DNA of 64,000 nucleotides, taken from the NCBI GenBank assembly GCA_031361295.1, contig JANMCN010000229.1, forward strand, positions 5,717 to 69,716, given 5' to 3'. Both the position numbers and the translations under genes were made by a program. Positions 6,250-33,518 of the stretch are shown here, piece after piece (the first letter of the stretch is position 1; each line of letters opens with the position of its first letter). Source of the stretch: Acidobacteriota bacterium. GTDB lineage: Bacteria; Acidobacteriota; Vicinamibacteria; Vicinamibacterales; 2-12-FULL-66-21. The notes under the pieces are model-generated. The model worked only from the letters and a program-made list of their open reading frames with translations, had not been told where the DNA came from and did no database searches.

Positions 6250-7250
6250 CGCCGGCTCCTCGCGACCACCTCGTAAACCCGTCGCAGCGGGGCGGAGATA
6301 CGCCAGCTCCACGACGAACGCAGCTGCTGCACTTCGCTCCGCAGCGCAGCCGTCTCGACACGCAGCCGTGCCAATTCGTCCTCACGGTCCTGCACGGCGC
6401 GAGCCTTCGCCACTTTCCGGTCCGCAGCCGCTGTCTCCTCGCGCGCCCGCCTGAGCGCCGGCTCGAGCACGTCGAGCCGGTCCTGTTCCATCGCCGCGAC
6501 CTCCCGCGCAAGGTGGAGCGCCTCCCGCTCTTTCGCGAGAATCACGTCAACGATGTGCGTTCGATAGAATGACGCGTGTTTGGCCACCAGCACGTCGAGC
6601 GGGCGGCGATACGCCGCTTCCTGCAACATCATCCGGCTCATCGAATCGGCACGCCGCCGGTAGTAGAACAGGACTTCAGGGACGATCCAGCCGGCCCGGC
6701 CGCTTTCCACGAGCCGCAGCCAGAAATCCCAGTCCTCGCAGCCTTCGCGCATCGACTCGTCGTAGCCCCCTGCGGCCTCAAAGGCCTCGCGGCGGACGAG
6801 CGCTGCGCCGTTGACGGCATTGCGCGCCAGCAAGGCGGGCAGGTCGCACTGCGCAGGCGTCCACGTCCACCGTTCGTCCCCAAACGTCTCGAGCCAGTGC
6901 GACACGAACGACACCGACGGCTGCTCGTCGAGTACCCTGAGGGCTTTTTCGAACCACGTCGGCGCCAGCCGGTCGTCGGCATCGAGCGCGCAGTAGACGG
7001 CGCCGGAGGCATGGCGCGCAGCGTGATTGCGGGCGGCCGCCAGCCCGCGGTTCTCCGTTCGCAGCACCCGGACTCGCGGCAGGCTGCAGGACGAAAGCTT
7101 CTCCACCGTTTCGGGGTCCGTCGATCCGTCGTCCACGATGACGACCTCGAAGTCCTGGCACGTCTGTGCGAGGACGCTGTTCAGCGATTCGTCGATGAAC
7201 GCGCCGTGGTTGAAGCAAGGCAGCAGAACCGACACTCGCGGCGGCGTCAC
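6246..7250 (-). CDS. family 2 glycosyltransferase with a C-terminal coiled coil
   Basis: The GT2 motifs are VSVLLPCFNHGAFIDESLNSVLAQTCQDFEVVIVDDGSTD and DADD. The C-terminal ~90 aa are heptad-rich (EREALHLAREVAAMEQDRL...RLRVETAALRSEVQQLRSSWSWRISAPLRR). Confidence 0.9.
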   Translation of the reverse strand: MTPPRVSVLLPCFNHGAFIDESLNSVLAQTCQDFEVVIVDDGSTDPETVEKLSSCSLPRVRVLRTENRGLAAARNHAARHASGAVYCALDADDRLAPTWFEKALRVLDEQPSVSFVSHWLETFGDERWTWTPAQCDLPALLARNAVNGAALVRREAFEAAGGYDESMREGCEDWDFWLRLVESGRAGWIVPEVLFYYRRRADSMSRMMLQEAAYRRPLDVLVAKHASFYRTHIVDVILAKEREALHLAREVAAMEQDRLDVLEPALRRAREETAAADRKVAKARAVQDREDELARLRVETAALRSEVQQLRSSWSWRISAPLRRVYEVVARSRR

Positions 7251-8017
7251 AGGCTGACCGGCTCGTCACCCGGCAGCGGCGGCGACTCGAGGAGTATGGA
7301 CAGATACCGATTGGCCACCGCCTCGGCTGGCCCGGCCAGGACGATGCGCCCCCCGTCGAGGAGCAAGGCTCGATCGCAGAAGAGGGCGATCGTCCGGGGA
7401 TCGTGGCTGACGAGGAGCATCGAGTGTCCCGCCGCATGCAGCTGGCGGTAGCGCACCTGGCAGCGCTCCTTGAATTCGGCGTCGCCCACGGCAAAAATCT
7501 CGTCCAGGATCAGGACGTCACGTACGGCCCTGAACGCCACCGCATAGGCGAGCCTCGCGGCCATGCCGCTCGAATAGTGCCGCAGCTCGAGGTGCGCGAA
7601 TCGCTCGAGGCCGGCAAACGCGAGGATGGACCCTGTCGCCCGCCGCAGCTCGCGCAGCGTGAGCCCCATCACCGTCCCGAGCAGCTCGATATTGTCGATC
7701 GCATCCAGATCGGGATTCCAGCCAACGCCGAGCTCCAGGATGGGCGTGACGGCGGCACGGACTTCGACCCGCCCGGCATCCGCCTGGTAGATCCCCGCGA
7801 CGATTTTCAAAAGAGTGCTCTTCCCGCACCCGTTCCGGCCCATGAGGCCGAGGCTCTCTCCAGGGCGCAGCTCGAAACTGACGTCGTCGAGGACCTGCAG
7901 GCGCTCCTTCCGGCGGGGGCGGAACAGATCGAGCGCGTGCTCCCGGACGGTCTCGCGGCGCCCAGTTGGAATCACGAAGCTCTTCGAGACGCCGACCGCT
8001 TCGATGCGGGGCGTCAC
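7247..8017 (-). CDS. polysaccharide-export ABC transporter, ATP-binding subunit (Wzt/TagH-like, no C-terminal carbohydrate-binding domain)
   Basis: Walker A is GLMGRNGCGKSTLLK, the signature is YSSGMAARLAYA and Walker B is ILILDE. The start is the GTG at 8017 (VTPRIEAVGVSKSF), 2 nt after the Wzm stop. The track start at 8068 is the alternative. Confidence 0.9.
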   Translation of the reverse strand: MTPRIEAVGVSKSFVIPTGRRETVREHALDLFRPRRKERLQVLDDVSFELRPGESLGLMGRNGCGKSTLLKIVAGIYQADAGRVEVRAAVTPILELGVGWNPDLDAIDNIELLGTVMGLTLRELRRATGSILAFAGLERFAHLELRHYSSGMAARLAYAVAFRAVRDVLILDEIFAVGDAEFKERCQVRYRQLHAAGHSMLLVSHDPRTIALFCDRALLLDGGRIVLAGPAEAVANRYLSILLESPPLPGDEPVSL

Positions 8018-8018
8018 G

Positions 8019-8810
8019 TCAGAGATCCTCCGCCACGCGCGGCGCACGCAGCCTGTAGACGAGGGCACCGATACCGAGGATCAGGCACGTCTCGGCCAGG
8101 AGCAGCGCATGCGCGAGGACGGACGGGGCCTTCCCCTGCAACAGCACGCTCCTGGCGAACAGGATCACGGGGGTCGGCGGCCACACGTACAAGTAGACGT
8201 GCAGCCGCTCCGGCAGGATGCCAATCGGATACACGATTGGCGCGACGAAAAAGCCGGCCTGTGTCACGACCTCCCAGACCTGGTTCAAATCCCGGTACCG
8301 CATGAACAGCACACTGGCCGCCAGCGAGAACCCCGAGACGATCGCGAACAGGAGGGCCACGTAGAGCGCATATAGGGCGACCGCACCACCCGAGGGCGCA
8401 CGGCCCGTCAGGGCCAGGAACGCCAGGAGCACGATCGAGAACAGCACGACGGTGATCACGGAGTTCGAGGCCGAGGTCAGGACGATGACCCACGAGGGAA
8501 ATCTGGCTTTCGTCAGCAGGTAGCCTTTCGCGCGTAGCGAGAGGAGCCCGGTCTTCGTGGATTCCTGGAAGAACTCATAGAGGAACAACCCGATGATCAG
8601 GTCGAGTTTGTATTGGGCCTGACCCGCAAACACGTAAGAGAAGACCGCCAGCAGCACGAGGAACATCGTGAGCGGCTTCAGGAGCGCCCACACGAAGCCG
8701 CCGATCGTGCCGTGGTAGCGAGTCTTGAAATCGGTGCGGATGAGGGTCCAGACCAGGCCGGCGAACCGCCCGTGACCCTGCCGGACATCTGTGGCGACCA
8801 CTGGAATCAT
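8019..8810 (-). CDS. ABC-2 type polysaccharide-export permease (Wzm-like)
   Basis: This is a 263-aa protein with about 6 hydrophobic segments and the ABC-2 style N-terminus (LIRTDFKTRYHGTIGGFVWALLKPL). It lies immediately upstream of the ATPase. Confidence 0.9.
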   Translation of the reverse strand: MIPVVATDVRQGHGRFAGLVWTLIRTDFKTRYHGTIGGFVWALLKPLTMFLVLLAVFSYVFAGQAQYKLDLIIGLFLYEFFQESTKTGLLSLRAKGYLLTKARFPSWVIVLTSASNSVITVVLFSIVLLAFLALTGRAPSGGAVALYALYVALLFAIVSGFSLAASVLFMRYRDLNQVWEVVTQAGFFVAPIVYPIGILPERLHVYLYVWPPTPVILFARSVLLQGKAPSVLAHALLLAETCLILGIGALVYRLRAPRVAEDL

Positions 8811-8871
8811 CGAGGGGGAACCCTGATACTATACGGCCATTCCCACTGAAATCACTGTGTCTGGGGCGTGA

Positions 8872-10080
8872 ATGTCCGCAGCGGCGCTTCGCATCCTGCA
8901 CGTCGTTCCGTACTACGAGCATGCGTGGGCGTATGGGGGTATTCCGCGCCTGGCGACCACCATGACGCGCACGCTCGCCCGCCGTGGGCATGCCGTGACC
9001 GTCTGCACCACGGATGTCCGCGACGAGCGCTCGCGCACGGCAGCGGCGCGCGAGTGGAGCCACGGTGTCGACGTGCGCATCTTCCGGAATGTGTCCAATC
9101 GGCTGGCCTACCACTTGCAGTTCTTCACTCCGATGGGCCTTCGCGCCCACCTGCGCGCCGTTGCCGCCTCATTCGACGTCGCGCACCTTCACGCCTGCCA
9201 TCACCTGCCCGGCGCCATCGCCGCCGCCGCGCTCACCCGGGCATCGGTGCCGTATGTGCTGTCGCCGAACGGCACGGCGCGGCCCATCGAGCGGCGCGTC
9301 GTGGCCAAGCGCGCATTCTCCGCCACGATGGGCAGACACGTGCTCAGCGGCGCAGCCCGTGTGCTCGCCGTGACCCGCGTCGAACATGACCAGCTCGCCA
9401 CGCTCGGGGTGGCCTCTTCCCGCATCACGGTCGTGCCAAACCCGCTCGACGACGAGAGGGACGCGCGACCCGACGCCGCGCGCTTTCGCTCCGCTCACGG
9501 ACTCGGCGACGGACGCCTCGTGCTGTTCCTGGGCAAGCTGACGCCGCGCAAGGGCGTCGAAGACTTGATTCAGGCGTTCAGCCGGTTGCGGCTGGCCGAT
9601 GCGATGCTCGTGATCGCCGGAAACGACATGGGCACGGGAGCGGCCTGCGACCGGCTCGTCAGACGCCTCGGACTCGAGGCGCGGGTGGTCCGCACGGGGC
9701 TGCTGCGTGACATCGAACGCCTCGATGCCCTGCACGCGGCCGACGTCGTCGTATATCCATCACGCGACGAGATCTTCGGGCTGGTTCCTCTCGAAGCGCT
9801 TCTCTGCGGCACGTCCGTTGTCGTATGCGGCGACAGCGGTTGTGGAGAAATCTTGGGCAGGGTCGGGGGCGGCCTGATCGTCGCGTACGGTATGCCGTCC
9901 GAGCTCAGCGAGGCGATCGCCGCCATTCTCTGCGATCCCGCCGGATGGAGTGATCGCGCCGCAGCGGCGGGGCGCAAGGCGCGGGCGTTCTTCGGCGCAG
10001 ACGTCGTGTGCGATCAGCTCGAGCGCGTCTACGCGGAGGTCTGCGGGGCGGGCGCAGCTGCCGAGCAGCTCCCCGCATGA
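8872..10080 (+). CDS. family 4 (GT-B) glycosyltransferase
   Basis: It starts LRILHVVPYYEHAWAYGGIPR. The C-terminal GT1/GT4 core is VVVYPSRDEIFGLVPLEALLCGTSVVV. Confidence 0.9.
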   Translation: MSAAALRILHVVPYYEHAWAYGGIPRLATTMTRTLARRGHAVTVCTTDVRDERSRTAAAREWSHGVDVRIFRNVSNRLAYHLQFFTPMGLRAHLRAVAASFDVAHLHACHHLPGAIAAAALTRASVPYVLSPNGTARPIERRVVAKRAFSATMGRHVLSGAARVLAVTRVEHDQLATLGVASSRITVVPNPLDDERDARPDAARFRSAHGLGDGRLVLFLGKLTPRKGVEDLIQAFSRLRLADAMLVIAGNDMGTGAACDRLVRRLGLEARVVRTGLLRDIERLDALHAADVVVYPSRDEIFGLVPLEALLCGTSVVVCGDSGCGEILGRVGGGLIVAYGMPSELSEAIAAILCDPAGWSDRAAAAGRKARAFFGADVVCDQLERVYAEVCGAGAAAEQLPA

Positions 10081-11879
10081 CACACAATCCGATCGGGGTG
10101 TCGTTCGTCATTCCGGTCCTCAACGGCCGCCGCACGCTGCGGTCCGCGCTCGACGCAGTGCTCGGGCAGCGCGACGGCAGGCCCTTCGAGATCATCGTCG
10201 TCGACGATGGCAGCACGGACGGGTCACTCGCGCTGCTGCAGGAGCGCGAAGGGGCCGGTCAGTTGAAGCTGATCCACGGACCCGGCATCGGCACCGCGGC
10301 CGCGATCAATGCCGGCATCCGCGAGGCATCCCACCCGATCGTCTGCCAGGTTGACCAGGACGTCATCGTCCACGCCGGGTGGCTCACGTCGCTGGCGAGC
10401 CGCTTCGCCGATCCCGATATCGCTGCCGCACAAGGACAATACGTGGTCGCAGGCGGAGCGGGGTTCTGGGCACGGGCAATGGGCCGCGACCTCGAACATC
10501 GCTATTTCCGGATGGGCGGCGGTGACGCGGACCACGTCTGCACCGGCAACACCGCCTACCGCGCCACCGCGCTCCACAGCGTGGACCTTCTGGATGAACG
10601 CCTCGGGTACGGATACGACAACGATTTGAGCTACAGGCTGGCGGCGCGGGGACATCGCCTCGTGTACTGCCCGGACGCTCTGAGCACGCATCACTGGCGT
10701 GAAGAGTTCGGGACGTATCTTCGGCAGCAGTTCGGCGTCGGGTACGGGCGTCTCGATGTCGTGGCCCGTCACCCGCTGCGCGTCCGGGGAGACGATGTGT
10801 CGGGGGCCGTCATGATGCTGCATGGTCCGGCCATGCTCCTGGCGTGGCTGCTCATGAGCACGGCCGCTGTCGCCGCGGCCGCCGGTCTCCCGTGGCGGGC
10901 ATCCGCGGAGTCGGCGCTCCTCCTCATCGCGGTCCTCGCGGGCGAGCGGGCGGTCGCGGGTGTCGCAGCCTGGATCCGGACGAAGGACGGCGCAGCGCTC
11001 GGCTTCCCGGTTGCTCACCTTGCGCGCGACTGCGCGTGGGCCGTGGCCATCGTGCTCTGGGGTGCCCGGCTCATCACGCGGCAGCGCCCTGCGCCGTCAC
11101 ACTCGATGCCGCGCCGTTCGGTGGTCGCGCCTCACGCGGCCGCGCGTGCGGCCCGCCACGGCATCCGTCGCGGGTCCCTGCTGGTGGTGGTCCCGGCATT
11201 CAACGAGGCGTCGAATCTCCCACGAGTGGTCTCCGATGTCCGCCGCGCGCTGCCGGAAGCGGACGTGCTGATCGTCAACGATGGTTCGAGCGATGCGACT
11301 GAGAGTCTGCTGCCCAGTCTCGGTGTGCCCTGGCTCACGATGTCGCAGCGGGTGGGCGTCGGCGGAGCGGTGCGCACGGGCATCCGGTACGCGGCGCGGC
11401 GGGGCTATCGATACGTCGTCCGCGTGGACGGAGACGCGCAGCACAGGGCCTGCGACATCGGGCGGTTGCTCGTTCCTGTACTCTCGGGTCACGCGGATGC
11501 GGCCATCGGATCACGATTTCTTGCACGCGGTTCTGGCGGGGGCCTCCGGCGCATGAGCCAGTTGGCGCTCGCCGGGCTGCTGACGCTGCTGACCGGACGA
11601 CGGGTCACCGATCCCACGTCGGGCTTCTGGCTCTTTGGCCCCCGCGCGCTCGCCCTCCTCGCGCGCCATCATCCGGGCGGGTATGCCGAGCCTGAGCTCG
11701 TGCTCCTCCTCAGCCGCAACGGTGTGCGCGTCGTGGAGGTGCCCATCCGCATGAGGCCGAGACTCGCCGGTCGGACCTCGCTGACGGCGCCGCGGGCTCT
11801 CATCGCGCTCGCCCGGACGGTGCTCGCGCTGATCGTCGTCCCATTCAGAGGCACCGTGGAGGGCGAACCGGGTGACTGA
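10077..11879 (+). CDS. fusion of a synthase-like GT2 domain, a TM segment block and a GtrB/ArnC/Dpm1-like GT2 domain
   Basis: Domain 1 reads VSFVIPVLNGRRTL...IIVVDDGSTDGS...VDQDV...RQQFGVGYG. About 4 hydrophobic helices follow. Domain 2 reads LLVVVPAFNEASNL...LIVNDGSSDAT...RVDGDAQH...DPTSGFWLF. The start is the ATG at 10077, which makes an ATGA overlap with the previous stop. The track start is 10008. Confidence 0.8.
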   Translation: MTHNPIGVSFVIPVLNGRRTLRSALDAVLGQRDGRPFEIIVVDDGSTDGSLALLQEREGAGQLKLIHGPGIGTAAAINAGIREASHPIVCQVDQDVIVHAGWLTSLASRFADPDIAAAQGQYVVAGGAGFWARAMGRDLEHRYFRMGGGDADHVCTGNTAYRATALHSVDLLDERLGYGYDNDLSYRLAARGHRLVYCPDALSTHHWREEFGTYLRQQFGVGYGRLDVVARHPLRVRGDDVSGAVMMLHGPAMLLAWLLMSTAAVAAAAGLPWRASAESALLLIAVLAGERAVAGVAAWIRTKDGAALGFPVAHLARDCAWAVAIVLWGARLITRQRPAPSHSMPRRSVVAPHAAARAARHGIRRGSLLVVVPAFNEASNLPRVVSDVRRALPEADVLIVNDGSSDATESLLPSLGVPWLTMSQRVGVGGAVRTGIRYAARRGYRYVVRVDGDAQHRACDIGRLLVPVLSGHADAAIGSRFLARGSGGGLRRMSQLALAGLLTLLTGRRVTDPTSGFWLFGPRALALLARHHPGGYAEPELVLLLSRNGVRVVEVPIRMRPRLAGRTSLTAPRALIALARTVLALIVVPFRGTVEGEPGD

Positions 11880-12336
11880 CGTCGTCCAGGTGGTGTCGAT
11901 TACGGTCAGCGGAGCGCTCCTGGTCGCGGTCATCGAGCTGGTGCGGCGGCGCGCGCTGACGGAGGAGTACTCCTTCATCTGGATCGTCTGCGCCGGCGCG
12001 CTGCTCGCGCTGTCGCTCTGGCGAAACGTGCTGGAGCTCGCCGCGGCGGCACTCGGCGTCCACTACCCGCCCGCGGTCCTGCTGCTGGTACTCACCCTGT
12101 TCGTCGTCGTCGTCTCGCTGTACTTCTCGGTGGTCGTGTCGCGGCAGCGCAAGCAAATCGAGAGGCTGGTTGAAGAGATGGCGCTGATCGACGCCGAAGT
12201 GAGGCAGTTACGGGACCGCACCAGCCGCACGCAGAGTCGTGAAGGTCGCACTTTGAAACCGGAACTGTCGTCAGTCCGACCCGTACCTCCCGCGGAAGTG
12301 GTGCCACGCCCCTCGGGCGACCGCGGAAAGACCTGA
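11872..12336 (+). CDS. small membrane protein, DUF2304-like
   Basis: It has three or four hydrophobic helices followed by a charged helix (SRQRKQIERLVEEMALIDAEVRQLR). The position directly after a GtrB-like GT2 is the usual DUF2304 context. It starts at a GTG and overlaps the upstream gene by 8 nt. Its 3' tail overlaps the convergent gene by 66 nt. Confidence 0.6.
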   Translation: MTDVVQVVSITVSGALLVAVIELVRRRALTEEYSFIWIVCAGALLALSLWRNVLELAAAALGVHYPPAVLLLVLTLFVVVVSLYFSVVVSRQRKQIERLVEEMALIDAEVRQLRDRTSRTQSREGRTLKPELSSVRPVPPAEVVPRPSGDRGKT

Positions 12337-14547
12337 GGGCACGCGCACTTCTGGCGAGAGGATCGCGTGCGCGGCGTTCAGCCCAATCACCGCGGCTGCT
12401 CCGATCGCCCTTCGGGCGGGCGCCCCGACCCGCGCCTGAAGCTTCAGGTGGTTGCGCGTCGCAAAGTACACGCGACGCGACGAGCGCCGGCCAATGGTGC
12501 TCGCTCCTTCGTGATACGCGACAGAGGCAAGCACGCATGCCGACTGGAAGCCGGCATCGGCTGCGCGAAGGCAGAAGTCAATATCTTCGAAAGAGAAGAA
12601 GTAATCCTCATCCAGCAGGCCGGCCGCCTCGAACACCGACCGGCGAATCAGCATCACGCACCCGCTGACGCCATTGATGGCCTCCGGGGCGCGGCCGAGC
12701 GCCGCAACCGTCCTGCCCGATCCCCGCTGCCGCATCCGTCCGGTCGTGCGGGAGTATCGAATCCCGGCCGACGCGATTCGCCCGGGTTCTTCGCGCGAGA
12801 GAAGAAGCGGCGCCACGATGCCCAGCGTGACGTCAGCCTCGAAGGCGGCCAGCAGGTGTTCGATGGCGTCCGGTGCCAGGACCACGTCGCTGTTCACGAG
12901 CAGCACGTGGTCCGCACCCGCCTCCAGCGCCGACCGGATTCCGACGTTACAGCCGCCGGCGAAGCCGAGGTTGAGGCCCGTTTCGACAATCTCCACGCGA
13001 GTCAGCGCCTCGCGGAGCATGGCCGCGGATCCATCACCGGATCCGTTGTCGACGACGAGAATCCGGTCCGGCGGCCTGTAGGACGTCTGCAGCGAGCGGA
13101 CGGCGAGCCACGTCTGTTCGGGCGTGCGGTAATTGAGGACCACGGCCGCCAGTACGGAGGCGACGGACGGCTTGGGCGCAGCAGGCGCCGGCGCGATGCC
13201 CCGCGGAGCCGGCGTCATCTCCGCGTACATGGCGCGCAGCCGCGCGGCGTCCGCGTCGATCGACATCGGCTTGACGATCCCGGCGCGAAGGCGGTCCAGG
13301 AGTCCGGGCTCCTCGATCAGCCGGCGGAGACACGCCGCAAGCGCCGCGGCGTCCCCCGGTGGGAACAGCAGGCCGTCAACGCCGTCGTTGACCATCTCCG
13401 CCATGCCACCCAGGTCCGACGCAACGGCCGGCGCGCCGGCTGCGAACGCCTCCCGGATGATGAACGGCGCATTCTCGATCCACACGGAGGGCACAACGAG
13501 GACGTCCACGTCGTGCAGAACCGCCGGCATCCGTTCGTGCGGAACGGGGCCGAGGCGGCGGATGGCCGGATGGCCCAGCCGTAACGTGAGGGAGTCTGCG
13601 TAGGTCTGCTGACCGTGGTAGGCGGCGGTCCCGCCGAGAAGATCGACGACGATCGACCCTGGCGGAAGGAGGTCAACCGCGTCCAGGAGAACGTGCGGGG
13701 CCTTGGACGGCGTGAGCCCTCCGGCAAATGCCACGCGCAAGGGGACAGAGGGAGACCGGCGCTGCCCCTCGAACGGCGCGAGCGAAATGCCCTGGTCGCA
13801 GCGCTCCATTCGGTCGGTCGGCACCCCGAAACGCTTGAATACGGCGGCAATCGTTTCTGACGGCGCCAGGACCCGGTTGACGCCGTCAACCGAGTGCCTC
13901 ATGTGCCGCAGCCGCTCCTCGGTCGCCCCGCACGTTGTCGCTGGCGGCCGGAGCGCTTCCACGACTCGCTCAGCGAGGTGTACTGCGCGGGTAGCTCCCG
14001 GAATCGGCAGGCGCCTCAGGAACCGTCCTGCCGCGTACGAACGCGGCCCGGCCAGTGCCGCCGCCGGGATACAGCGTGCGCAGCCGCCATCGAACGGTCC
14101 CTCGCACCGGGCCCCATCCAGGTCGAACAACTGCCCGCGGTGGCAGACCAGCCAGTAGTCGTTCAGCGTCAGCACGACCGGAATGCCCCGCCGCGCGGCC
14201 TCGCGGGGCAGGTGCGTGGACAGGCACGTCAGATGCTGGACGTGCACGACATCTGGTTCAAACTCGTCCAGCAGACCCCCGGCGACGCGCAGAAGGCGCG
14301 GGTTTTCGTAGCTCTCTGCAAAAGTCGCACAGGACTGGAACGTGTTGTTGATGCTGAACACCCTGACCGGCCCGACGCGACGCCGTCGGACGGCCAGTTC
14401 CGGCTGCTCCGAATCGGCGTGGCGGGTCAGCACCGCGACGTCGGTGCCGGGCATCGCCGACAGCGCGAGGGCGAGGTCGCGGACGTAGACTTCCGTTCCG
14501 CCATGCGCGGCGGGCGGAAAGCCGTGGACGACCAGCATGACGCGCAT
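12271..14547 (-). CDS. bifunctional GT4 (N-terminal) and GT2 (C-terminal) glycosyltransferase
   Basis: The ATG at 14547 gives MRVMLVVHGFPPAAHGGTEVYVRDLA and a GT4 core (VVPSVWIENAPFIIREAFAAGAPAVASDLGGMAEMV). The GT2 part reads AAVVLNYRTPEQT...ILVVDNGSGDGS...FFFSFEDIDFCLR. The start makes an ATGA overlap with the upstream stop. The track start at 14838 is over-extended. Confidence 0.85.
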   Translation of the reverse strand: MRVMLVVHGFPPAAHGGTEVYVRDLALALSAMPGTDVAVLTRHADSEQPELAVRRRRVGPVRVFSINNTFQSCATFAESYENPRLLRVAGGLLDEFEPDVVHVQHLTCLSTHLPREAARRGIPVVLTLNDYWLVCHRGQLFDLDGARCEGPFDGGCARCIPAAALAGPRSYAAGRFLRRLPIPGATRAVHLAERVVEALRPPATTCGATEERLRHMRHSVDGVNRVLAPSETIAAVFKRFGVPTDRMERCDQGISLAPFEGQRRSPSVPLRVAFAGGLTPSKAPHVLLDAVDLLPPGSIVVDLLGGTAAYHGQQTYADSLTLRLGHPAIRRLGPVPHERMPAVLHDVDVLVVPSVWIENAPFIIREAFAAGAPAVASDLGGMAEMVNDGVDGLLFPPGDAAALAACLRRLIEEPGLLDRLRAGIVKPMSIDADAARLRAMYAEMTPAPRGIAPAPAAPKPSVASVLAAVVLNYRTPEQTWLAVRSLQTSYRPPDRILVVDNGSGDGSAAMLREALTRVEIVETGLNLGFAGGCNVGIRSALEAGADHVLLVNSDVVLAPDAIEHLLAAFEADVTLGIVAPLLLSREEPGRIASAGIRYSRTTGRMRQRGSGRTVAALGRAPEAINGVSGCVMLIRRSVFEAAGLLDEDYFFSFEDIDFCLRAADAGFQSACVLASVAYHEGASTIGRRSSRRVYFATRNHLKLQARVGAPARRAIGAAAVIGLNAAHAILSPEVRVPSGLSAVARGAWHHFRGRYGSD

Positions 14548-15470
14548 CAGATGCGCCCCGTGCGCAGCCAGGCCCGGCCGTCGCGGGAAGACCGGGCGCC
14601 GAGATACTGGCCGAGAGGCAGCGCCACGCCGAGCGCGGCATTCCGGACGGCGCCTCGACACCGGCCCTGCTCGTCGGCCAGCGCGAGCCGGACGTTCGCG
14701 GGAACCGTCGCCGCAATCGCCCGCAGCAGCGAGGGCACGCTGGGGATCGTGGCCAGCCCGAACAGCGCGTGCAGCCGCTGATGCACGAGGTAGGTTCTCT
14801 GGAACTCGTACGTCACAGGCCGCTCGTGCGAGTGCCACACGATCGCCTCCGGCGCATAGGCGATCCTGTACCCGGCGAGGAGCACTTCACGGGCCCATTC
14901 GAGGTCCTCCGCAATGGGCGTCGCGCGGAACGGATGTGCACGCCACACGGTTAGCCGGACGCAGGCGCACACATTGTCGAACGCGCATGCGATGAGTCGC
15001 TCCGCCGGTGACATCGCCTCGTACTGTTCCGCGGTGAGCGGCCCGACGACTCTCGAGGCTGGCTGCGCGGCCACCCATCGCGACAGGTACTCCCTCGTGA
15101 GCCGTCGTGCGCCGTGGGCCGGACACTGCCGGCCGAAGCTCCCGGCCACCCGCTCGTCCGCGAGCAACGGCGCGATCAGTGCCTGCAGCCACTCGGACGA
15201 AGCGGGCACGGCATCCTGCACGAGCAGAACGGCGAACTCACCCTCGGCCAGCGCCAGACCCTGATTGCGCGTGGTCCCGTGGTTGAAATCACAGGGGCGC
15301 ACATCAAGCACCCGCGCGCCGCGGCGACGCAGCCGCTCGAGCGTGCCGTCGGTCGATCCGGAGTCCACGCCGACGACGCGACAGGCGAAGTCGCCGACCT
15401 GGCCGTCCACGGCGTCCAGCAGATCGTGAAGCCCCCCGCCGGCGTTGAGCGTGGGGATGACAACCGACAC
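14547..15470 (-). CDS. family 2 glycosyltransferase
   Basis: The GT2 N-terminus is SVVIPTLNAGGGLHDLLDAVDGQ...VVGVDSGSTDGT. It uses a GTG start. Confidence 0.85.
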   Translation of the reverse strand: MSVVIPTLNAGGGLHDLLDAVDGQVGDFACRVVGVDSGSTDGTLERLRRRGARVLDVRPCDFNHGTTRNQGLALAEGEFAVLLVQDAVPASSEWLQALIAPLLADERVAGSFGRQCPAHGARRLTREYLSRWVAAQPASRVVGPLTAEQYEAMSPAERLIACAFDNVCACVRLTVWRAHPFRATPIAEDLEWAREVLLAGYRIAYAPEAIVWHSHERPVTYEFQRTYLVHQRLHALFGLATIPSVPSLLRAIAATVPANVRLALADEQGRCRGAVRNAALGVALPLGQYLGARSSRDGRAWLRTGRI

Positions 15471-15478
15471 GACGGGTC

Positions 15479-16900
15479 TCAGAGATATCCCCCTGATGCT
15501 CGAGTCTCTGACGCGGTCTCGATGGGGGCGTCAGCGCGCTCCATCGCGACGTGCCTGCGTCGCAGGCTCTGGTATCTGGCCTGCCATTCGGCGGCGTCCT
15601 CGGCGATCGACTTCACTGGCGGGCTTGCGGCAGCCAGCCGTTCGCGCAACCCGGAGTCGGCGAGCAGCCGCCTCAATGCGTTGCGCAGCGAGTCCGCCGA
15701 AAATGGGTCCGCGAGCAGACCGTTTACTCCGTCAGTCACGAGGTCAGGTATGCCGCCGGTGCGCGACCCGACGACCGGTACGCCATGCATGAACGCCTCG
15801 TGGATCACGAGTGGTGAGTTCTCCGGCCAGAGCGACGGCACGGCGAGCACGTCGAGGGCGCCGTAGATGTGGGCGACCTCGCGGCGGTCGAAGCCGCCGT
15901 GGAAGACGACCGGCAGGCGGGCGGCGGCGCGGCGGAGAGCGGCGACGTATTCCGGAAAGGTCGAGGCGTCGCCGTGGAGATGGATTTCGAAAGAGCCTTC
16001 CAGCAGCCGTGCGGCGTCGAGCAGGACGTGCACGCCCTTGTGCCAGACCAGCGTGCCCACGAAGCCGATGCGCACCGGAGACCCGGCGTCGCGCGCGACG
16101 CGTGTGGAAGCGGGTGACCGGGCGAATCCGTAGTCGGAGATCTCCACCCGACCATCATCGACGCCGAGGCGCACCAGCTCGGCGCCGATGGAGGCCGAAG
16201 GGGCCACGAAGAGATCCACGGTTTCGAAGACGTGTCGTGCGCAGGCCAGGCGGCGACGGATATCGGACGGCAGGACCGGCGCCGCACCGATTGAGCGCGC
16301 GGCCGCCACGGCGGTCGCCGGCGCGAGGCGCCGCAGCAGCAGTCCAGCGCGCCCGATGACGCGCCCCGCAGACGCCCGCGTGAGCCGGCCCGCCGACATC
16401 TGCGAATACCAAGGCGACTGCACGAAGCATCGGCTGCAGCGTACCGGGTCGATCTCCGCGCACACATGCTCCTCCGCCACGTGCACTCTCTGGCCGCCGG
16501 AAGGGCAGACGAGCGTGTAATCGTGCACCGTGGCCGCCACGACCGCTCCCCGTTCCCTCGCCAGCCGCGGGAGGTCGAACGACAGATTGAGCAGGTTGTG
16601 GACGTGGAGCACGTCCGGCCGCACCGCGTCGAGGGCGTGGGCGAGCTGCGCGTTCATCCGGGGAGAACTATAGGTGTCTTCGAAGCTCCGGAACTCCCAG
16701 TTGTTGACGACCTCGATGACGGTGAGGCCGCCGACCGTGCGCCAGCGCAGCGTACCGTGAGCCGCCGCGGGATCGTACTCGGCGGCAAGCACGAAGACGT
16801 CGTCCTGGAGCGCCTGCTGACGGGCGAGCTCGAAAGCGTAGATCTCCGAACCGGCCCGGTGGCGCGGGAGAAAATCGTGAATCGCGTGCAGCACTCGCAT
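15479..16900 (-). CDS. family 4 (GT-B) glycosyltransferase
   Basis: The ATG at 16900 gives MRVLHAIHDFLPRHRAGSEIYAFELAR. The C-terminal core is LAVPSLWPENSPLVIHEAFMHGVPVVGSRTGGIPDLV. The track start at 17395 reads through the TPR gene in another frame. Confidence 0.85.
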   Translation of the reverse strand: MRVLHAIHDFLPRHRAGSEIYAFELARQQALQDDVFVLAAEYDPAAAHGTLRWRTVGGLTVIEVVNNWEFRSFEDTYSSPRMNAQLAHALDAVRPDVLHVHNLLNLSFDLPRLARERGAVVAATVHDYTLVCPSGGQRVHVAEEHVCAEIDPVRCSRCFVQSPWYSQMSAGRLTRASAGRVIGRAGLLLRRLAPATAVAAARSIGAAPVLPSDIRRRLACARHVFETVDLFVAPSASIGAELVRLGVDDGRVEISDYGFARSPASTRVARDAGSPVRIGFVGTLVWHKGVHVLLDAARLLEGSFEIHLHGDASTFPEYVAALRRAAARLPVVFHGGFDRREVAHIYGALDVLAVPSLWPENSPLVIHEAFMHGVPVVGSRTGGIPDLVTDGVNGLLADPFSADSLRNALRRLLADSGLRERLAAASPPVKSIAEDAAEWQARYQSLRRRHVAMERADAPIETASETRASGGYL

Positions 16901-16904
16901 GGGG

Positions 16905-18731
16905 CTATCGCCCCGCGTCGCGCGCGGCCGCGAGCTGCTGATTGCGCTCCACGCACTCGGCGACTCCCGGTGTCGCCGGTGCGAGGAGCCGGGCCTCGCC
17001 GCACATCCGCGCCGCCGAGTGGTAATCCTTGAATGTGTGCTCGAAGAGACTGGCGAGCTGGAGCCTGGCGAGCACGTTCCCGCTGTCGTGCGCCAGGGCC
17101 TGGCTGTAGTAGCGCCTCGCCGCTTCGGCATCGCCGGCGACCAGCGCGAGCGCGCCCAGATTGGTGTAGCCCCGCGCGAAATCGGGATCGATCTCGAGCG
17201 CGCGACGGAACGACCGGTCGGCTTCGTCCAGGTGGCCGGTCTGCGCCAGACAGATCCCGAGATTCGTGTGAGCGTCGCGATGGGCGGGCCGCAACTCGAC
17301 GACGGTCCTGTAGGCGGCCACCGCGTGCGCGCAGTCGCCGGCCTCGCGCAGCGCATCCCCGAGCGCGTAGGACGGCTCCCACATGCCGGCCGCATGCACG
17401 GTTGCCTCGGTCCAGAGCGACACGGGGCTGCTCCACACGCGGTTCCGGCTGACCGTCAGCGCCCCCAGCGTCACGAGCAAAGCGCCGGCGGCGGCCGCGA
17501 GACCGACGCGCACACGGGGCGACGGCCAGGCCCCTGCAAGCCATCCCGCCACCTGGCCGGCCGCGATCAGAAACAACCCGGCACTCGCGAGATACACCCG
17601 GTGCTCCGCCATGCCCTCCCGCAGCGGGATGAAGCTGGACGAGGGCGCGAGCACGGCCAGAAACCAGATCGTGCCGAAGGTCAGCAGCGGGCGCGAGCGA
17701 CGCAGCCGCACGGCCACCGCCAGGGCCAGCGCGAGGCCGCCAAGCGCGACGAGAGCCAAAGGATCCGCGGATGCGGTGACGCGGTGGACGGAATGCATGA
17801 TCGACTGCCCGCGCGGCCACACCAGCAGCCCGATGTACCGCCAGATGACGATGCTTTGCGTGAGAACATTCAGCGCGGACGTCTCGAGCGCGCGGCCCTC
17901 CGACAAGAACCCGAAGGCGAAGAGCCGGTAGATCGCGGCCGAAAGCAGCAGGACGGACAGCGGCACGAAGATCAGCAGCAGCCTGCGGCGCCGCGATGTG
18001 TCAGGGGTCAATCCAGGCGAAGCCTGGACGACGGTCGGATAGCCCGCCGGTGCAGCGGGCGCTGGCCGCTCCCCAAGCAGCCACGCGTAGGCGAGAACGA
18101 TCACCGGCAGCACGAGCGCGACCTCCTTCGAGGCCAGTGCCACGAGACCGCTGGCCGCGGCGACCGCGCCGGTCGCGACGCGGCCCGACCGCATGGCGCG
18201 ACGTGCAGCCAGGAGCGACGCCATGAACCACACGGCGCAGAGCAGTTCTGATCGTCCCGAGACATATCCGACGGCCTCGCTCTGGAGCGGATGGACCGCG
18301 AACAGCGCGGCCCCCAGCAGCGCGGCCGCTGCCCTCCCGCGTCGCAGACCGGCGTCCCCCAGCAGTCGCAGCAGCAGCAGGCAGAAAAGCGTGGTGGCGA
18401 CCGCGTGCAGCGCCACATTGGTGAGGTGGAACCCGAAAGGCCCACTCCCCCAGACGAAGCGATCGAGCGCATAGGTGATGTTGACCGCCGGACGGAACGG
18501 GCTGTAAACGAAGAGGAACCTGACGTTCGAGAGGTCGGTCAAGGAAGGGTTGGACAGGACCGTGTCGTGATCGTCGTAGACGAACGGATTGTGGAGCGCG
18601 TTGGCATAGACGACCGCGGCGAGCAGCCCGGCGAGCAGGGACCCACCCCAGCGGGACGCCGCCGTCCGGGAGGGCGCCGCGGCTGGCGATCGTTTCAGCG
18701 GTGCGCGGCGCATCGGCGGCTGCTGCGGCAC
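16905..18731 (-). CDS. TMTC/PMT-like GT-C membrane glycosyltransferase fused to C-terminal TPR repeats
   Basis: The N-terminus YANALHNPFVYDDHDTVLSNPSL sits in the first loop, where the DD/DE motif is expected. About 10 hydrophobic segments follow. The C-terminal TPRs read (ALGDALREAGDCAHAVAAYRTVVELRPAHRDAHTNLGICLAQTGHLDEADRSFRRALEIDPDFARGYTNLG...). Confidence 0.7.
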   Translation of the reverse strand: MPQQPPMRRAPLKRSPAAAPSRTAASRWGGSLLAGLLAAVVYANALHNPFVYDDHDTVLSNPSLTDLSNVRFLFVYSPFRPAVNITYALDRFVWGSGPFGFHLTNVALHAVATTLFCLLLLRLLGDAGLRRGRAAAALLGAALFAVHPLQSEAVGYVSGRSELLCAVWFMASLLAARRAMRSGRVATGAVAAASGLVALASKEVALVLPVIVLAYAWLLGERPAPAAPAGYPTVVQASPGLTPDTSRRRRLLLIFVPLSVLLLSAAIYRLFAFGFLSEGRALETSALNVLTQSIVIWRYIGLLVWPRGQSIMHSVHRVTASADPLALVALGGLALALAVAVRLRRSRPLLTFGTIWFLAVLAPSSSFIPLREGMAEHRVYLASAGLFLIAAGQVAGWLAGAWPSPRVRVGLAAAAGALLVTLGALTVSRNRVWSSPVSLWTEATVHAAGMWEPSYALGDALREAGDCAHAVAAYRTVVELRPAHRDAHTNLGICLAQTGHLDEADRSFRRALEIDPDFARGYTNLGALALVAGDAEAARRYYSQALAHDSGNVLARLQLASLFEHTFKDYHSAARMCGEARLLAPATPGVAECVERNQQLAAARDAGR

Positions 18732-19305: not shown

Positions 19306-19363
19306 ACGTCCGGGTTGATGACGTTCAGTTTAGCAGACCGCGCGACAAGGGCACAGCCGCGGC

Positions 19364-33456: not shown

Positions 33457-33460
33457 TCTC

Positions 33461-33496: not shown

Positions 33497-33518
33497 TCGA
33501 GTATGACGCGAACGCGGC

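What the first reader, a model, noticed from the sequence alone, without database searches (positions are those of the whole stretch)
10077..18731. Gtr-like three-part set (GtrB-like GT2, DUF2304, TMTC/PMT-like GT-C with TPRs) is a candidate periplasmic protein-glycosylation system next to Thr-rich pilins
The C-terminal domain of 10077-11879 carries the polyprenyl-phosphate-sugar synthase signature (NEASNL..., DGDAQH, DPTSGF), as in GtrB, ArnC and Dpm1. It is followed by a small DUF2304-like membrane protein.

At 16905-18731 lies a ~10-TM protein with an early-loop DD motif (FVYDDHDTV) and C-terminal TPRs. That is the architecture of eukaryotic TMTC O-mannosyltransferases and of actinobacterial and fungal PMT enzymes, which use lipid-P-monosaccharide donors to modify Ser/Thr of secreted proteins.

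There is precedent for a GT-C enzyme decorating pilins from a lipid-linked monosaccharide (TfpW in some P. aeruginosa strains). Both PilA copies end in a Thr-rich tail, ...NTGATYTNATVNTATTPVQ, with 7 Thr in the last 19 residues and NxT sequons.

Bacterial TMTC-like proteins are widespread but, to my knowledge, largely uncharacterised. A synthase / small membrane protein / TPR-GT-C triad beside a pilus locus would be a testable new protein O-glycosylation pathway.
Basis: partly seen in the sequence, partly recalled or inferred. Interest (0 to 1): 0.65.

Follow-up and report, generated by a model that had tools for sequence, protein, structure and literature searches.

The report
Lipid-sugar glycosylation module in glycan cluster
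The three genes are real and recur together, but they belong to a conserved polysaccharide-assembly cluster built around an ABC exporter in soil Acidobacteria, so they most likely decorate that exported glycan, not the pilins about 15 kb away.

Summary
- **10077-11879(+)** is a fused double GT2. Its C-terminal half is a polyprenyl-phosphate-sugar synthase (best matches PpgS, AglJ and Pyrococcus Dol-P-Man synthase).
- **11872-12336(+)** is a DUF2304 (GacJ/Rv3632-type) protein.
- **16905-18731(-)** is a GT-C-fold membrane enzyme with 11 TM helices, an invariant DD in the first periplasmic loop and a C-terminal TPR domain.

"Next to pilins" is overstated. The PilA genes lie 14.8 kb or more away.

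I compared 80 homologous loci. In distant relatives (under 46% identity) pilus genes are never nearby (0 of 30). The gene instead stays with Wzm/Wzt (22 of 30, median gap 83 bp) and/or the synthase/DUF2304 pair (15 of 30). No locus has a prepilin gene within 2 kb.

The triad is therefore a genuine module of an 11-gene ABC-transporter glycan cluster (3793-18731). Its closest analogues are GacI/GacJ/GacL and PpgS/Rv3632/Rv3779.

A protein acceptor is not excluded. The only characterised TPR-fused GT-C enzymes I found, TMTC and TfpW, both glycosylate proteins.

Verdict: partly supported, a new variant of a known kind, moderate interest.

The parts
11184..11879 (+). GT2C: polyprenyl-phosphate-sugar synthase domain (C-terminal half of the 600-aa fusion protein 10077-11879)
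   Evidence: Carries NEASNL, DGDAQH and DPTSGF. Best NCBIfam matches are PpgS, AglJ and Dol-P-hexose transferase. PDB 5MLZ Dol-P-Man synthase matches at E 1.7e-10 over residues 27-230, and ArnC 9HWJ also matches.
10077..11126 (+). GT2N: second GT2 catalytic domain followed by a hydrophobic membrane region (N-terminal half of the same protein); role unknown
   Evidence: Pfam Glycos_transf_2, Glyco_tranf_2_3 and Glyco_trans_2_3. Best NCBIfam matches are MftF and EpsD. PDB hits are generic GT2s. It is a separate gene in some relatives (L038) and persists where GT2C and DUF2304 are absent.
11872..12336 (+). DUF2304 small membrane protein (GacJ/Rv3632 type), presumed partner and activator of the synthase
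   Evidence: PF10066 at 77.7 bits against a 25.5 cut-off, matching profile positions 2-105 of 106. Its start overlaps the synthase stop by 8 nt. Where the synthase is detected it is almost always detected too. GacJ and Rv3632 stimulate their synthases (10.1101/180810).
17397..18731 (-). Membrane domain of the 608-aa protein: GT-C-fold glycosyltransferase, 11 TM helices, with the DD motif at 18570-18575
   Evidence: AF2 pLDDT 83 (full length) and 76 (domain), pTM 0.81 for both. The top 13 Foldseek PDB hits are all GT-C enzymes (STT3, AglB, EmbA/B; probability 0.90-1.00), followed by PglB, Pmt1/2, ArnT, DPY19, ALG9 and AftA. D53/D54 are invariant. A 39%-identical homologue (L055) passes the Pfam PMT_2 threshold.
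16905..17396 (-). Periplasmic C-terminal TPR domain (about 4 repeats) plus a conserved Cys-containing tail of the same protein
   Evidence: Pfam TPR_1, TPR_2 and TPR_11 over residues 454-560. C494, C577 and C593 are invariant and C467 is nearly invariant, consistent with a periplasmic location. 11 TM helices plus a K/R-rich N-terminus place the domain outside the cytoplasm.
15479..16900 (-). GT4 glycosyltransferase (GT4_a), 4 nt downstream of the GT-C gene
   Evidence: Pfam Glyco_trans_1_4 and Glyco_transf_4. Junction shown. Conserved in 21 of 21 close and 17 of 30 distant loci.
14547..15470 (-). GT2 glycosyltransferase (GT2_b)
   Evidence: Pfam Glycos_transf_2. Conserved in the cluster.
12271..14547 (-). 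GT4-GT2 fusion glycosyltransferase; the GT2 half resembles rhamnosyl- and galactofuranosyl-transferases
   Evidence: Pfam GT4 and GT2. NCBIfam rhamnosyltransferase 64 bits and GlfT1 52 bits, both below their cut-offs. Its start overlaps the GT2_b stop.
8872..10080 (+). GT4 glycosyltransferase (GT4_c), directly upstream of the synthase gene
   Evidence: Pfam. In distant loci it lies directly beside the GT-C gene, at a median gap of 144 bp.
8019..8810 (-). Wzm-like ABC-2 permease
   Evidence: PF01061. In distant loci it lies directly downstream of the GT-C gene, at a median gap of 83 bp, in 22 of 30.
7247..8068 (-). Wzt-like ABC ATPase; too short to carry a C-terminal carbohydrate-binding module; the true start is probably downstream of 8068
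   Evidence: PF00005. Present in 22 of 30 distant loci.
6246..7250 (-). GT2 glycosyltransferase with a C-terminal coiled-coil tail (GT2_d)
   Evidence: Pfam GT2. Sequence shown. Conserved in the cluster.
3793..6312 (-). Multidomain protein with methyltransferase and polysaccharide-deacetylase domains (glycan tailoring or capping); start uncertain
   Evidence: PF08241 and PF01522. Present in 19 of 30 distant loci.

Best explanation
The three genes are one module of a conserved 11-gene glycan-assembly cluster of about 15 kb (3793-18731), built around a Wzm/Wzt ABC exporter in a Vicinamibacterales-type acidobacterium.

**Proposed mechanism**
1. Cytoplasmic GT4 and GT2 enzymes build a lipid-linked glycan, which Wzm/Wzt exports (inferred from the gene content).
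2. In parallel, the GT2C domain of 10077-11879 loads a monosaccharide from a nucleotide sugar onto polyprenyl phosphate. The DUF2304 protein assists it, as GacJ assists GacI and Rv3632 assists PpgS (inferred from homology).
3. The lipid-P-sugar reaches the periplasmic leaflet. No flippase gene was found, so this step is unexplained.
4. The 608-aa GT-C enzyme uses the invariant DD in its first periplasmic loop to transfer that sugar onto an acceptor in the periplasm.

The most likely acceptor is the cluster's own exported glycan. That would be post-polymerisation side-chain decoration, as done by GacL on streptococcal polyrhamnose, by Rv3779 on mycobacterial arabinogalactan, and by the Klebsiella three-component system on an ABC-exported O-antigen. 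The TPR domain would then dock the enzyme to the polymer or to partner proteins.

**Shown:** domain identities, the GT-C fold, residue conservation and gene linkage.
**Inferred:** the donor, the acceptor, the topology and the order of steps.
For: **Domain identities**
- Synthase.
- DUF2304.
- GT-C fold: the top 13 Foldseek hits are all GT-C enzymes at probability 0.90-1.00, and every non-GT-C hit is at or below 0.16.
- DD is invariant in 30 of 30 homologues.
- PMT_2 passes the Pfam threshold in the 39%-identical homologue L055.

**Gene linkage**
- The GT-C gene is 4 nt upstream of a GT4 gene in a tight GT operon.
- All 21 close loci with adequate flanks keep every cluster gene that lies within the 10-kb flank.
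- In distant loci (under 46% identity) the same gene set is rearranged, yet the GT-C gene sits between GT4_c (median gap 144 bp) and Wzm (median gap 83 bp).
- Linkage classes among those 30 distant loci: synthase/DUF2304 plus Wzm/Wzt 13, Wzm/Wzt only 9, synthase/DUF2304 only 2, neither 6.
- Pilus genes are near 0 of 30 distant loci. No prepilin gene lies within 2 kb in 0 of 80 loci.

**Literature**
- GacI/GacJ/GacL acts on an ABC-exported rhamnan, and Rv3632 stimulates PpgS (10.1101/180810).
- Three-component systems also decorate ABC-transporter-dependent O-antigens (PMC11127046).
Against: - The only TPR-fused GT-C enzymes with a known acceptor that I found, TMTC1-4 and TfpW, both modify proteins (PMC7801869; 10.1101/2020.04.19.049825).
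- Nine of 30 distant loci keep the GT-C gene with Wzm/Wzt but have no synthase or DUF2304 within 10 kb. The donor synthase is therefore not obligatorily local, or the enzyme may use another donor.
- No flippase, initiating phosphoglycosyltransferase or WaaL-type ligase is encoded in the window or in the distant clusters examined.
- The fold evidence is moderate: Foldseek E about 1e-2 and query-normalised TM-score 0.29-0.48 for the top 13 hits.
- The window protein itself matches no GT-C Pfam model.
- The loci were retrieved with two peptide patterns, so the sample is biased towards this subfamily.
- There are no biochemical data.
Confidence: 0.5

Rival explanations
1. The enzyme is a protein O-glycosyltransferase, a bacterial TMTC/TfpW analogue. 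It transfers a sugar from the polyprenyl-P-sugar made by GT2C/DUF2304 onto Ser/Thr of periplasmic or surface proteins, and the TPR domain recognises the protein substrate. The Thr-rich PilA tails would be one possible target.
For: - The architecture matches TfpW and TMTC: 11 TM helices, a cytoplasmic N-terminus, DD(x) in periplasmic loop 1 and a periplasmic or lumenal C-terminal TPR domain.
- There are short motif similarities to TMTC: FVYDD, and ALFAVHPLQ(S/T)EAV against TMTC3 LLFAVHPIHT.
- L080 has a minimal triad island with no glycan cluster within 10 kb.
- In this genome the cluster is flanked on both sides by type IV pilus or pseudopilin genes.
- The PilA tails are Thr-rich.
Against: - tfpW is always immediately downstream of pilA. 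Here PilA is 14.8 kb away, and 0 of 80 loci have a prepilin gene within 2 kb.
- Pilus linkage is lost in all 30 distant loci and is interrupted by housekeeping genes in 21 of 29 close ones.
- The most frequent, closest neighbours in distant loci are Wzm/Wzt and GT4_c.
- There is no DUF1736 or PMT Pfam match in the window protein or in any homologue scanned.
- TPR domains also occur on periplasmic polysaccharide-export scaffolds such as BcsC and PgaA (own knowledge; weak matches), so a TPR domain does not prove a protein acceptor.
Confidence: 0.22
2. The GT-C enzyme handles the exported polymer itself. It would transfer the Wzm/Wzt-exported lipid-linked glycan en bloc to its final acceptor (lipid, protein or cell-wall component), or extend it in the periplasm as the Emb/Aft/Mpt enzymes do. 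GT2C/DUF2304 might then supply the lipid-P-sugar primer on which the glycan is built, as AglJ does.
For: - It is the only enzyme of the conserved cluster with a periplasm-facing active site.
- No WaaL/PglL-type ligase and no initiating phosphoglycosyltransferase is in the cluster.
- It is linked to Wzm/Wzt more often than to the synthase (22 of 30 against 15 of 30).
- The best structural matches are oligosaccharyltransferases (STT3, AglB) and EmbA/B.
- GT2C matches AglJ, which primes a Dol-P-linked glycan.
Against: - Ligase and initiating genes are commonly encoded outside O-antigen clusters (own knowledge).
- The Foldseek ranking among GT-C families is not discriminating, because E-values and TM-scores are similar.
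- The sequence-level link is to PMT_2, the ArnT/PMT-type clan that uses monosaccharide donors.
- The contiguous synthase-DUF2304-GT-C arrangement in L077 fits the donor-to-transferase logic of three-component systems.
Confidence: 0.15
3. The 608-aa protein is not catalytic. It would be a membrane-anchored TPR scaffold for the export or pilus machinery, and its resemblance to GT-C enzymes would be vestigial.
For: - The window protein matches no GT-C Pfam model.
- The Foldseek scores are modest.
- It sits between pilus and glycan genes in this genome.
Against: - The residues expected for catalysis and ligand binding are invariant in the extracytoplasmic loops: DD, HP..EAV.Y.SGR.E and L.E.MAEHR.YLA.
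- The family is very large and well conserved in its membrane domain (96,902 representatives).
Confidence: 0.05

Closest known systems
GacI / GacJ / GacL (with GacK and the GacD/E ABC transporter), Streptococcus pyogenes group A carbohydrate
   Same: - A GT2 polyprenyl-P-sugar synthase is followed immediately by a DUF2304 partner.
- A GT-C transferase is present.
- The polymer backbone is made in the cytoplasm and exported by an ABC transporter.
- All the genes lie in one glycan cluster (10.1101/180810).
   Different: - The GT-C here carries a C-terminal TPR domain.
- The synthase is fused to a second, membrane-anchored GT2 domain.
- There is no GacK-type (Wzx-like) flippase gene.
- The host is a Gram-negative acidobacterium.
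- The sugar and the acceptor are unknown.
PpgS (Rv3631) / Rv3632 / Rv3779, GalN decoration of mycobacterial arabinogalactan
   Same: - PpgS is the best-scoring NCBIfam model over GT2C, tied with AglJ at about 85 bits.
- Rv3632 is a DUF2304 homologue that stimulates the synthase.
- A GT-C enzyme then modifies an ABC-exported lipid-linked glycan (own knowledge).
   Different: - The score is far below the equivalog cut-off (85 bits against 370), so the sugar specificity is unknown.
- Rv3779 is not known to carry TPRs (own knowledge).
- The mycobacterial genes are dispersed rather than in one cluster.
Gtr-type three-component systems (GtrA/GtrB/Gtr*; the Klebsiella system on ABC-exported O2 antigen; Citrobacter GT136 system)
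   Same: The logic is the same: a lipid-P-sugar synthase plus a periplasm-facing GT-C, acting after polymerisation and also on ABC-transporter-dependent O-antigens (PMC11127046).
   Different: - The defining third component, a GtrA/SMR or MATE flippase, is absent.
- The small membrane protein here is DUF2304, a synthase partner.
- The GT-C is fused to TPRs.
TfpW, the pilin D-arabinofuranosyltransferase of Pseudomonas aeruginosa Pa5196/PA7
   Same: [quoted passage not shown]
- It uses a polyprenyl-P-monosaccharide donor.
   Different: - tfpW lies immediately downstream of pilA. Here PilA is 14.8 kb away, and no homologous locus has a prepilin gene within 2 kb.
- The annotated genes of the window include no DprE1/DprE2 or DPPR-synthase-type donor pathway.
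Eukaryotic TMTC1-4 O-mannosyltransferases
   Same: - 11 TM helices plus a C-terminal TPR domain.
- A strictly conserved DD in the TM1-TM2 loop.
- A similar TM3 motif ((L)FAVHP..(T)EAV).
- A Dol-P-sugar-type donor is expected (PMC7801869).
- Some homologues are auto-named 'protein O-mannosyl-transferase' by JGI.
   Different: - Pfam DUF1736, present in all TMTCs at E below 1e-19, is not detected in the window protein or in any homologue scanned.
- There are only about 4 TPRs here.
- The genomic context is a polysaccharide cluster.

Membership tests
Polyprenyl-phosphate glycosyl synthases (GtrB / DPM1 / PpgS / GacI / ArnC type GT2) | GT-A GT2 catalytic domain with the DxD-type motif, matching family members over the whole catalytic domain | tested here: met
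   PF00535. 5MLZ Dol-P-Man synthase matches at E 1.7e-10 over residues 27-230, and ArnC 9HWJ also matches. The motifs NEASNL, DGDAQH and DPTSGF are present.
Polyprenyl-phosphate glycosyl synthases (GtrB / DPM1 / PpgS / GacI / ArnC type GT2) | Score above a curated equivalog cut-off, which would name the transferred sugar | tested here: not met
   PpgS 85.3 bits against 370. AglJ 85 against 325. Dol-P-hexose transferase 47 against 375. ArnC 38.8 against 529. The sugar specificity is unknown.
DUF2304 (GacJ / Rv3632) | Match to PF10066 above the gathering score, in a small protein with about 3 TM helices | tested here: met
   77.7 bits against 25.5, matching profile positions 2-105 of 106. Three hydrophobic segments are visible in the sequence.
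DUF2304 (GacJ / Rv3632) | Encoded directly next to (or fused with) the polyprenyl-P-sugar synthase | tested here: met
   An 8-nt overlap with the synthase stop (11872 against 11879). The two are adjacent in every related locus where both were detected.
DUF2304 (GacJ / Rv3632) | Forms a complex with the synthase and stimulates it | not testable with these tools
   Needs co-purification and enzyme kinetics, as done for GacI/GacJ.
GT-C superfamily | Polytopic membrane fold shared with solved GT-C enzymes | tested here: met
   Model of residues 1-445 has pTM 0.81. Foldseek ranks 1-13 are all GT-C enzymes (STT3, AglB, EmbA/B; probability 0.90-1.00; TMq 0.29-0.48). All non-GT-C hits have probability at or below 0.16. 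E-values are only about 1e-2.
GT-C superfamily | Conserved acidic motif (DD, DE or DxD) in the first extracytoplasmic loop | tested here: met
   D53 and D54 are invariant in 30 of 30 homologues, within NPFVYDDHDT, between helix 24-41 and the next TM helix.
Pfam PMT_2 (PF13231; ArnT/PMT-type GT-C) | Match above the gathering score (26.1 bits) | tested here: not met
   The window protein gets no hit even at E <= 10. The link is transitive only: L055 (39% identical) scores 34.7 bits, while L035, L059 and P0270 score 19-22 bits.
PMT / GT39 protein O-mannosyltransferases (fungal and actinobacterial) | PMT domain (PF02366) and, in the eukaryotic enzymes, a lumenal MIR domain | tested here: not met
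   No PMT or MIR Pfam hit. Pmt1/2 (6P25) ranks only 22nd in Foldseek, with 295 aligned columns.
TMTC family | DUF1736 (PF08409) loop segment between TM7 and TM8 | tested here: not met
   No DUF1736 hit in the window protein or in the distant homologues scanned.
TMTC family | 11 TM helices, DD in the TM1-TM2 loop and a C-terminal TPR domain on the non-cytoplasmic side | tested here: met
   The AF2 model has 11 TM helices. The N-terminal 23 residues carry 5 K/R and 0 D/E. TPRs cover residues 451-583. TMTC features are taken from PMC7801869.
TfpW-type pilin glycosyltransferase | Gene immediately downstream of the major pilin gene pilA | tested here: not met
   The nearest PilA gene is 14.8 kb away. 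0 of 80 homologous loci have a prepilin-motif ORF within 2 kb.
TfpW-type pilin glycosyltransferase | Sequence homology to TfpW | not tested
Only the architecture could be compared.
Three-component (Gtr-type) extracytoplasmic glycosylation system | Dedicated flippase for the lipid-P-sugar (GtrA/SMR, MATE or Wzx type) | tested here: not met
   No such Pfam family was found among the window genes or in the distant clusters examined. A VanZ-like membrane protein appears in some relatives.
Wzy_C O-oligosaccharyltransferases and ligases (PglL / PilO / WaaL) | Wzy_C domain (PF04932) | tested here: not met
   No Wzy_C hit on the 608-aa protein or on any other cluster gene.

The most novel reading that the evidence does not exclude
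The 608-aa enzyme and its very large bacterial family (96,902 representative clusters) may be true functional counterparts of eukaryotic TMTCs. They would be TPR-guided protein O-glycosyltransferases that use a lipid-linked donor supplied by an ABC-transporter-coupled glycan pathway to modify envelope proteins, possibly including the Thr-rich type IV pilins. That would define a widespread, undescribed bacterial protein O-glycosylation route.
Probability: 0.18. Interest if true: 0.7.

Novelty: new variant of a known kind. Interest (0 to 1): 0.4.

Why it matters
Outside-the-cytoplasm glycosylation by a lipid-P-sugar synthase plus a GT-C transferase is well known. It shapes O-antigen serotypes, streptococcal and mycobacterial cell walls, and pilin glycosylation.

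**What is new here**
- The GT-C is fused to TPRs.
- The synthase is fused to a second, membrane-anchored GT2.
- There is a DUF2304 partner but no recognisable flippase.
- The module is embedded in a conserved Wzm/Wzt cluster of Vicinamibacteria, which are abundant but poorly studied soil bacteria.

TPR-fused GT-C proteins form a very large family. TfpW was the only characterised bacterial member I could find.

Learning whether the TPR domain recognises a glycan or a protein would say what this family does. It would also bear on how TMTC-type enzymes arose. If the acceptor is simply the cluster's own glycan, the finding is a useful annotation and not a discovery.

Tried and rejected
- **Full-length Foldseek against the PDB.** TPR proteins (CTPR, OGT, APC/C) swamped the list, so it said nothing about the membrane domain. 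I re-predicted residues 1-445 alone.
- **Sequence searches of the membrane domain.** phmmer of the whole protein and an hmmsearch profile of the membrane domain against PDB sequences found only TPRs or chance hits.
- **Pfam on the window membrane domain at E <= 10.** Nothing. DUF1736 was never found in any homologue, so TMTC membership in the Pfam sense is rejected.
- **Representative-library search.** It gave the family size. The 150 listed hits were too close to reach annotated GT-C families.
- **One Pfam call failed** because a frameshifted locus (L080) translated with stop codons. I repeated it without that locus.
- **Pilin target.** Considered, and rejected as the leading reading on the synteny evidence.
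- **WaaL/PglL-type ligase identity for the 608-aa protein.** Rejected, because there is no Wzy_C hit.
- **Motif-retention counts across the 80 loci.** These are not independent evidence, because the loci were retrieved with those same peptide patterns. I rely on alignment A1 instead.

Full report
**What is in the sequence**

The window is about 68% GC, so I called genes by codon-position GC content and annotated them with Pfam and NCBIfam. The finding's three genes are real.

The gene at 10077-11879(+) encodes a 600-aa fusion of two GT2 domains.
- The N-terminal domain (GT2N) is followed by a hydrophobic membrane region. It matches MftF- and EpsD-like models and only generic GT2 structures.
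- The C-terminal domain (GT2C, 11184-11879) carries NEASNL, DGDAQH and DPTSGF.
- The best NCBIfam matches over GT2C are polyprenyl-phosphate-sugar synthases: PpgS 85 bits, AglJ 85 bits and a Dol-P-hexose transferase 47 bits. All are far below the equivalog cut-offs.
- Among solved structures it matches Pyrococcus Dol-P-Man synthase 5MLZ (E 1.7e-10, whole catalytic domain) and ArnC.

The gene at 11872-12336(+) overlaps the synthase stop by 8 nt. It is a full-length DUF2304 (77.7 bits against 25.5).

The gene at 16905-18731(-) encodes 608 aa, with FVYDDHDTV at 18558-18584 and C-terminal TPRs.

The two PilA copies (33519-34055 and 34434-34976) are 98% identical. Both end in NTGATYTNATVNTATTPVQ.

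**What the 608-aa protein is**

Its membrane domain matches no Pfam family, even at E <= 10, and no solved structure by sequence or profile.

An AlphaFold2 model built on 30 homologues is confident (pLDDT 83, pTM 0.81). It shows:
- 11 transmembrane helices, with juxtamembrane helices in the first loop and in the loop after the seventh TM helix;
- about four TPRs (residues 451-583);
- a Cys-containing tail.

The first 23 residues carry five K/R and no D/E. The N-terminus should therefore be cytoplasmic, and the DD loop and the TPR domain periplasmic. The invariant cysteines C494, C577 and C593 fit that location.

A full-length Foldseek search returned only TPR proteins. A model of residues 1-445 alone (pTM 0.81) gave GT-C enzymes as all of its 13 best PDB matches: STT3 of OST, AglB and EmbA/B, at probability 0.90-1.00 and TMq 0.29-0.48. 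PglB, Pmt1/2, ArnT, DPY19, ALG9 and AftA followed. Every non-GT-C hit had probability at or below 0.16. The E-values are modest (about 1e-2), so the fold assignment is good but says nothing about the subfamily.

At the sequence level:
- D53, D54 and a set of loop motifs (HP..EAV.Y.SGR.E and L.E.MAEHR.YLA) are invariant in 30 of 30 homologues.
- A 39%-identical homologue (L055) passes the Pfam PMT_2 threshold at 34.7 bits against 26.1. Three others are just below it.
- DUF1736, the Pfam hallmark of TMTCs, was never detected.
- The DD position and the (L)FAVHP..(T)EAV segment do resemble those described for TMTCs (PMC7801869).

The family is very large: 96,902 representative clusters at E <= 1e-3.

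**Which genes it travels with**

This is the decisive evidence.

In the window, the glycan cluster runs from 3793 to 18731:
- a methyltransferase/deacetylase protein, GT2_d, Wzt and Wzm on the minus strand;
- GT4_c, the GT2N-GT2C fusion and DUF2304 on the plus strand;
- the GT4-GT2 fusion, GT2_b, GT4_a and the GT-C-TPR gene on the minus strand.

The GT-C gene stops 4 nt before the GT4_a start codon, and the next genes are equally tightly packed. Upstream on the same strand lies a pilus block: a 189-aa protein, a Zn-ribbon/TPR protein, a PilY1-like protein and minor pilins. PilA is 14.8 kb away.

I collected 4 loci by exact-protein look-up and 78 from species-representative genomes. Most are from Vicinamibacterales or Vicinamibacteria, with some from Thermoanaerobaculia and some MAGs labelled Myxococcales. 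I mapped the window's proteins onto them with tblastn.

Close homologues (46% identity or more, 21 loci with adequate flanks):
- Every cluster gene that lies within the 10-kb flank is kept.
- Of the 29 loci of any flank length that have the pilus block, it directly abuts the GT-C gene in only 8. In the other 21 it is separated from it.
- In L001 the intervening genes are a sigma-54 regulator, DHQ synthase, an FAD protein and ProRS.

Distant homologues (under 46% identity, 30 loci):
- PilY1, PilX, the 189-aa protein and the Zn-TPR protein are found in 0 of 30.
- The same glycan gene set is present but rearranged. The GT-C gene now lies between GT4_c (median gap 144 bp) and Wzm/Wzt (median gap 83 bp).
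- Linkage classes: synthase/DUF2304 plus Wzm/Wzt 13; Wzm/Wzt only 9; synthase/DUF2304 only 2; neither 6.

In the most distant examples the triad itself persists. L077 has GT2C, DUF2304 and GT-C contiguous on one strand. L080 has a minimal island, with DUF2304, GT2C and GT2N divergent from the GT-C-TPR gene, between housekeeping genes.

A scan for prepilin signal motifs found none within 2 kb of the GT-C gene in any of 80 loci.

Caveat: the species-genome loci were retrieved with two peptide patterns from this subfamily. They therefore sample the subfamily, not the whole superfamily.

**How it most likely works**

The synthase/DUF2304 pair corresponds to GacI/GacJ and to PpgS/Rv3632. In both, the small protein binds or stimulates a polyprenyl-P-sugar synthase. 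In S. pyogenes a GT-C enzyme (GacL) then adds the sugar to a polyrhamnose exported by an ABC transporter (10.1101/180810). Three-component periplasmic glycosylation also acts on ABC-transporter-dependent O-antigens (PMC11127046).

The parsimonious reading runs as follows:
1. The cluster's GT4 and GT2 enzymes build a lipid-linked glycan, and Wzm/Wzt exports it.
2. GT2C with DUF2304 makes a lipid-P-monosaccharide.
3. The GT-C enzyme adds that sugar to the exported glycan in the periplasm.

I put this at about 0.5.

Domain identities, fold, conservation and linkage are shown. The donor, the acceptor and the topology are inferred.

Unexplained points:
- No flippase, initiating phosphoglycosyltransferase or WaaL-type ligase is encoded in the window or in the distant clusters examined.
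- Nine distant loci keep the GT-C gene with Wzm/Wzt but lack a nearby synthase or DUF2304.
- The role of GT2N is unknown.
- The role of a TPR domain on a glycan-modifying enzyme is unknown.

**Rivals**

- **Protein O-glycosyltransferase (about 0.22; pilins specifically less).** TfpW, the pilin arabinosyltransferase, has exactly this architecture: 11 TM helices, DDx in periplasmic loop 1 and a periplasmic TPR domain (10.1101/2020.04.19.049825). TMTCs have it too. Both modify proteins. However, tfpW is always immediately downstream of pilA, which is not the case in any locus here.
- **The GT-C enzyme handles the exported polymer itself (about 0.15).** It would act as a ligase, oligosaccharyltransferase or periplasmic polymerase. 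This fits the missing ligase and initiator, the tighter link to Wzm/Wzt and the STT3/AglB/Emb structural matches. The evidence does not discriminate, though.
- **Non-catalytic scaffold (about 0.05).** The invariant loop residues argue against it.

**Comparison with what is known, and novelty**

The system works like the multi-component transmembrane glycosylation systems GacIJL, PpgS/Rv3632/Rv3779 and Gtr. It shares its GT-C architecture with TfpW and the TMTCs.

It is not a member of PMT/GT39 (no PMT or MIR domain). It is not a member of the Pfam DUF1736/TMTC family. It does not have the TfpW genomic context. It lacks the Gtr-type flippase.

I classify it as a new variant of a known kind: a TPR-fused GT-C enzyme, a double-GT2 synthase fusion and a DUF2304 protein, embedded in a conserved Wzm/Wzt cluster of Vicinamibacteria. 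In the searchable literature, TfpW is the only characterised bacterial TPR-fused GT-C enzyme.

**Verdict**

The features are real, but the adjacency to PilA is overstated.
The triad is a genuine module, but the pilin or protein target is not supported by gene context.
- Interest is 0.4.
- The most novel surviving reading is a bacterial TMTC-like protein O-glycosylation route fed by an ABC-transporter-coupled pathway. I give it about 0.18 probability, and it would merit about 0.7 if true.

Noticed in passing
window 32926-34976 (-): Two tandem PilA genes are 98% identical over 178 aa (33519-34055 and 34434-34976). A third, divergent prepilin gene lies at 32926-33456. All three are directly upstream of a VKOR-DsbA fusion gene (31659-32849), which may form the pilin disulfides.
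   Followed up: partly
window 1270-3790 (-): A second set of pseudopilin-like genes (1270-1938, 1935-3071, and a prepilin motif at about 3547), next to a sigma-54 response regulator (1-1269), flanks the other side of the glycan cluster. In this genome the cluster therefore sits between two pilus-type gene sets.
   Followed up: partly
L057 5647-6399 (-); L036 6941-7696 (-): A conserved membrane protein of about 250 aa, with sub-threshold VanZ similarity (22-26 bits), lies next to DUF2304 in L057. In L036 it lies next to GT2N, where the synthase and DUF2304 are missing. It has no counterpart in the window and could be the missing lipid-sugar handling component.
   Followed up: partly
window 3793-7250 (-): An 839-aa protein combines methyltransferase and polysaccharide-deacetylase domains. 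The neighbouring GT2 (6246-7250) ends in a long coiled coil, reminiscent of the chain-terminating and length-measuring proteins of ABC-transporter O-antigen pathways. The Wzt here is too short to carry a carbohydrate-binding module.
   Followed up: no
window 10077-11126 (+): The GT2N domain with its membrane region is fused to the synthase here, but is a separate gene in some relatives (for example L038). It persists where the synthase and DUF2304 are absent. Its function is unknown; it could make a glycolipid primer or help translocate the lipid-linked sugar.
   Followed up: partly
L018, L043, L054, L076: Contigs carrying this Acidobacteria-type cluster are labelled Dehalococcoidia, Bifidobacteriaceae or Enterobacterales MAGs. 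These labels are probably binning or labelling errors in the public records.
   Followed up: no
window 18736-23661 (-): The 1119-aa PilY1-like protein has no Pfam hit in the window copy, and its homologues show only faint or weak T4P_PilY1 hits. The following 189-aa protein (no Pfam hit) and the Zn-ribbon/TPR protein travel with the pilus block, not with the GT-C gene (L001).
   Followed up: partly
L056 and L071 (same contig); L061 and L063 (same MAG): Single genomes carry several paralogues of the TPR-fused GT-C gene, some with none of the glycan-cluster genes nearby. The family probably serves more than one pathway.
   Followed up: no
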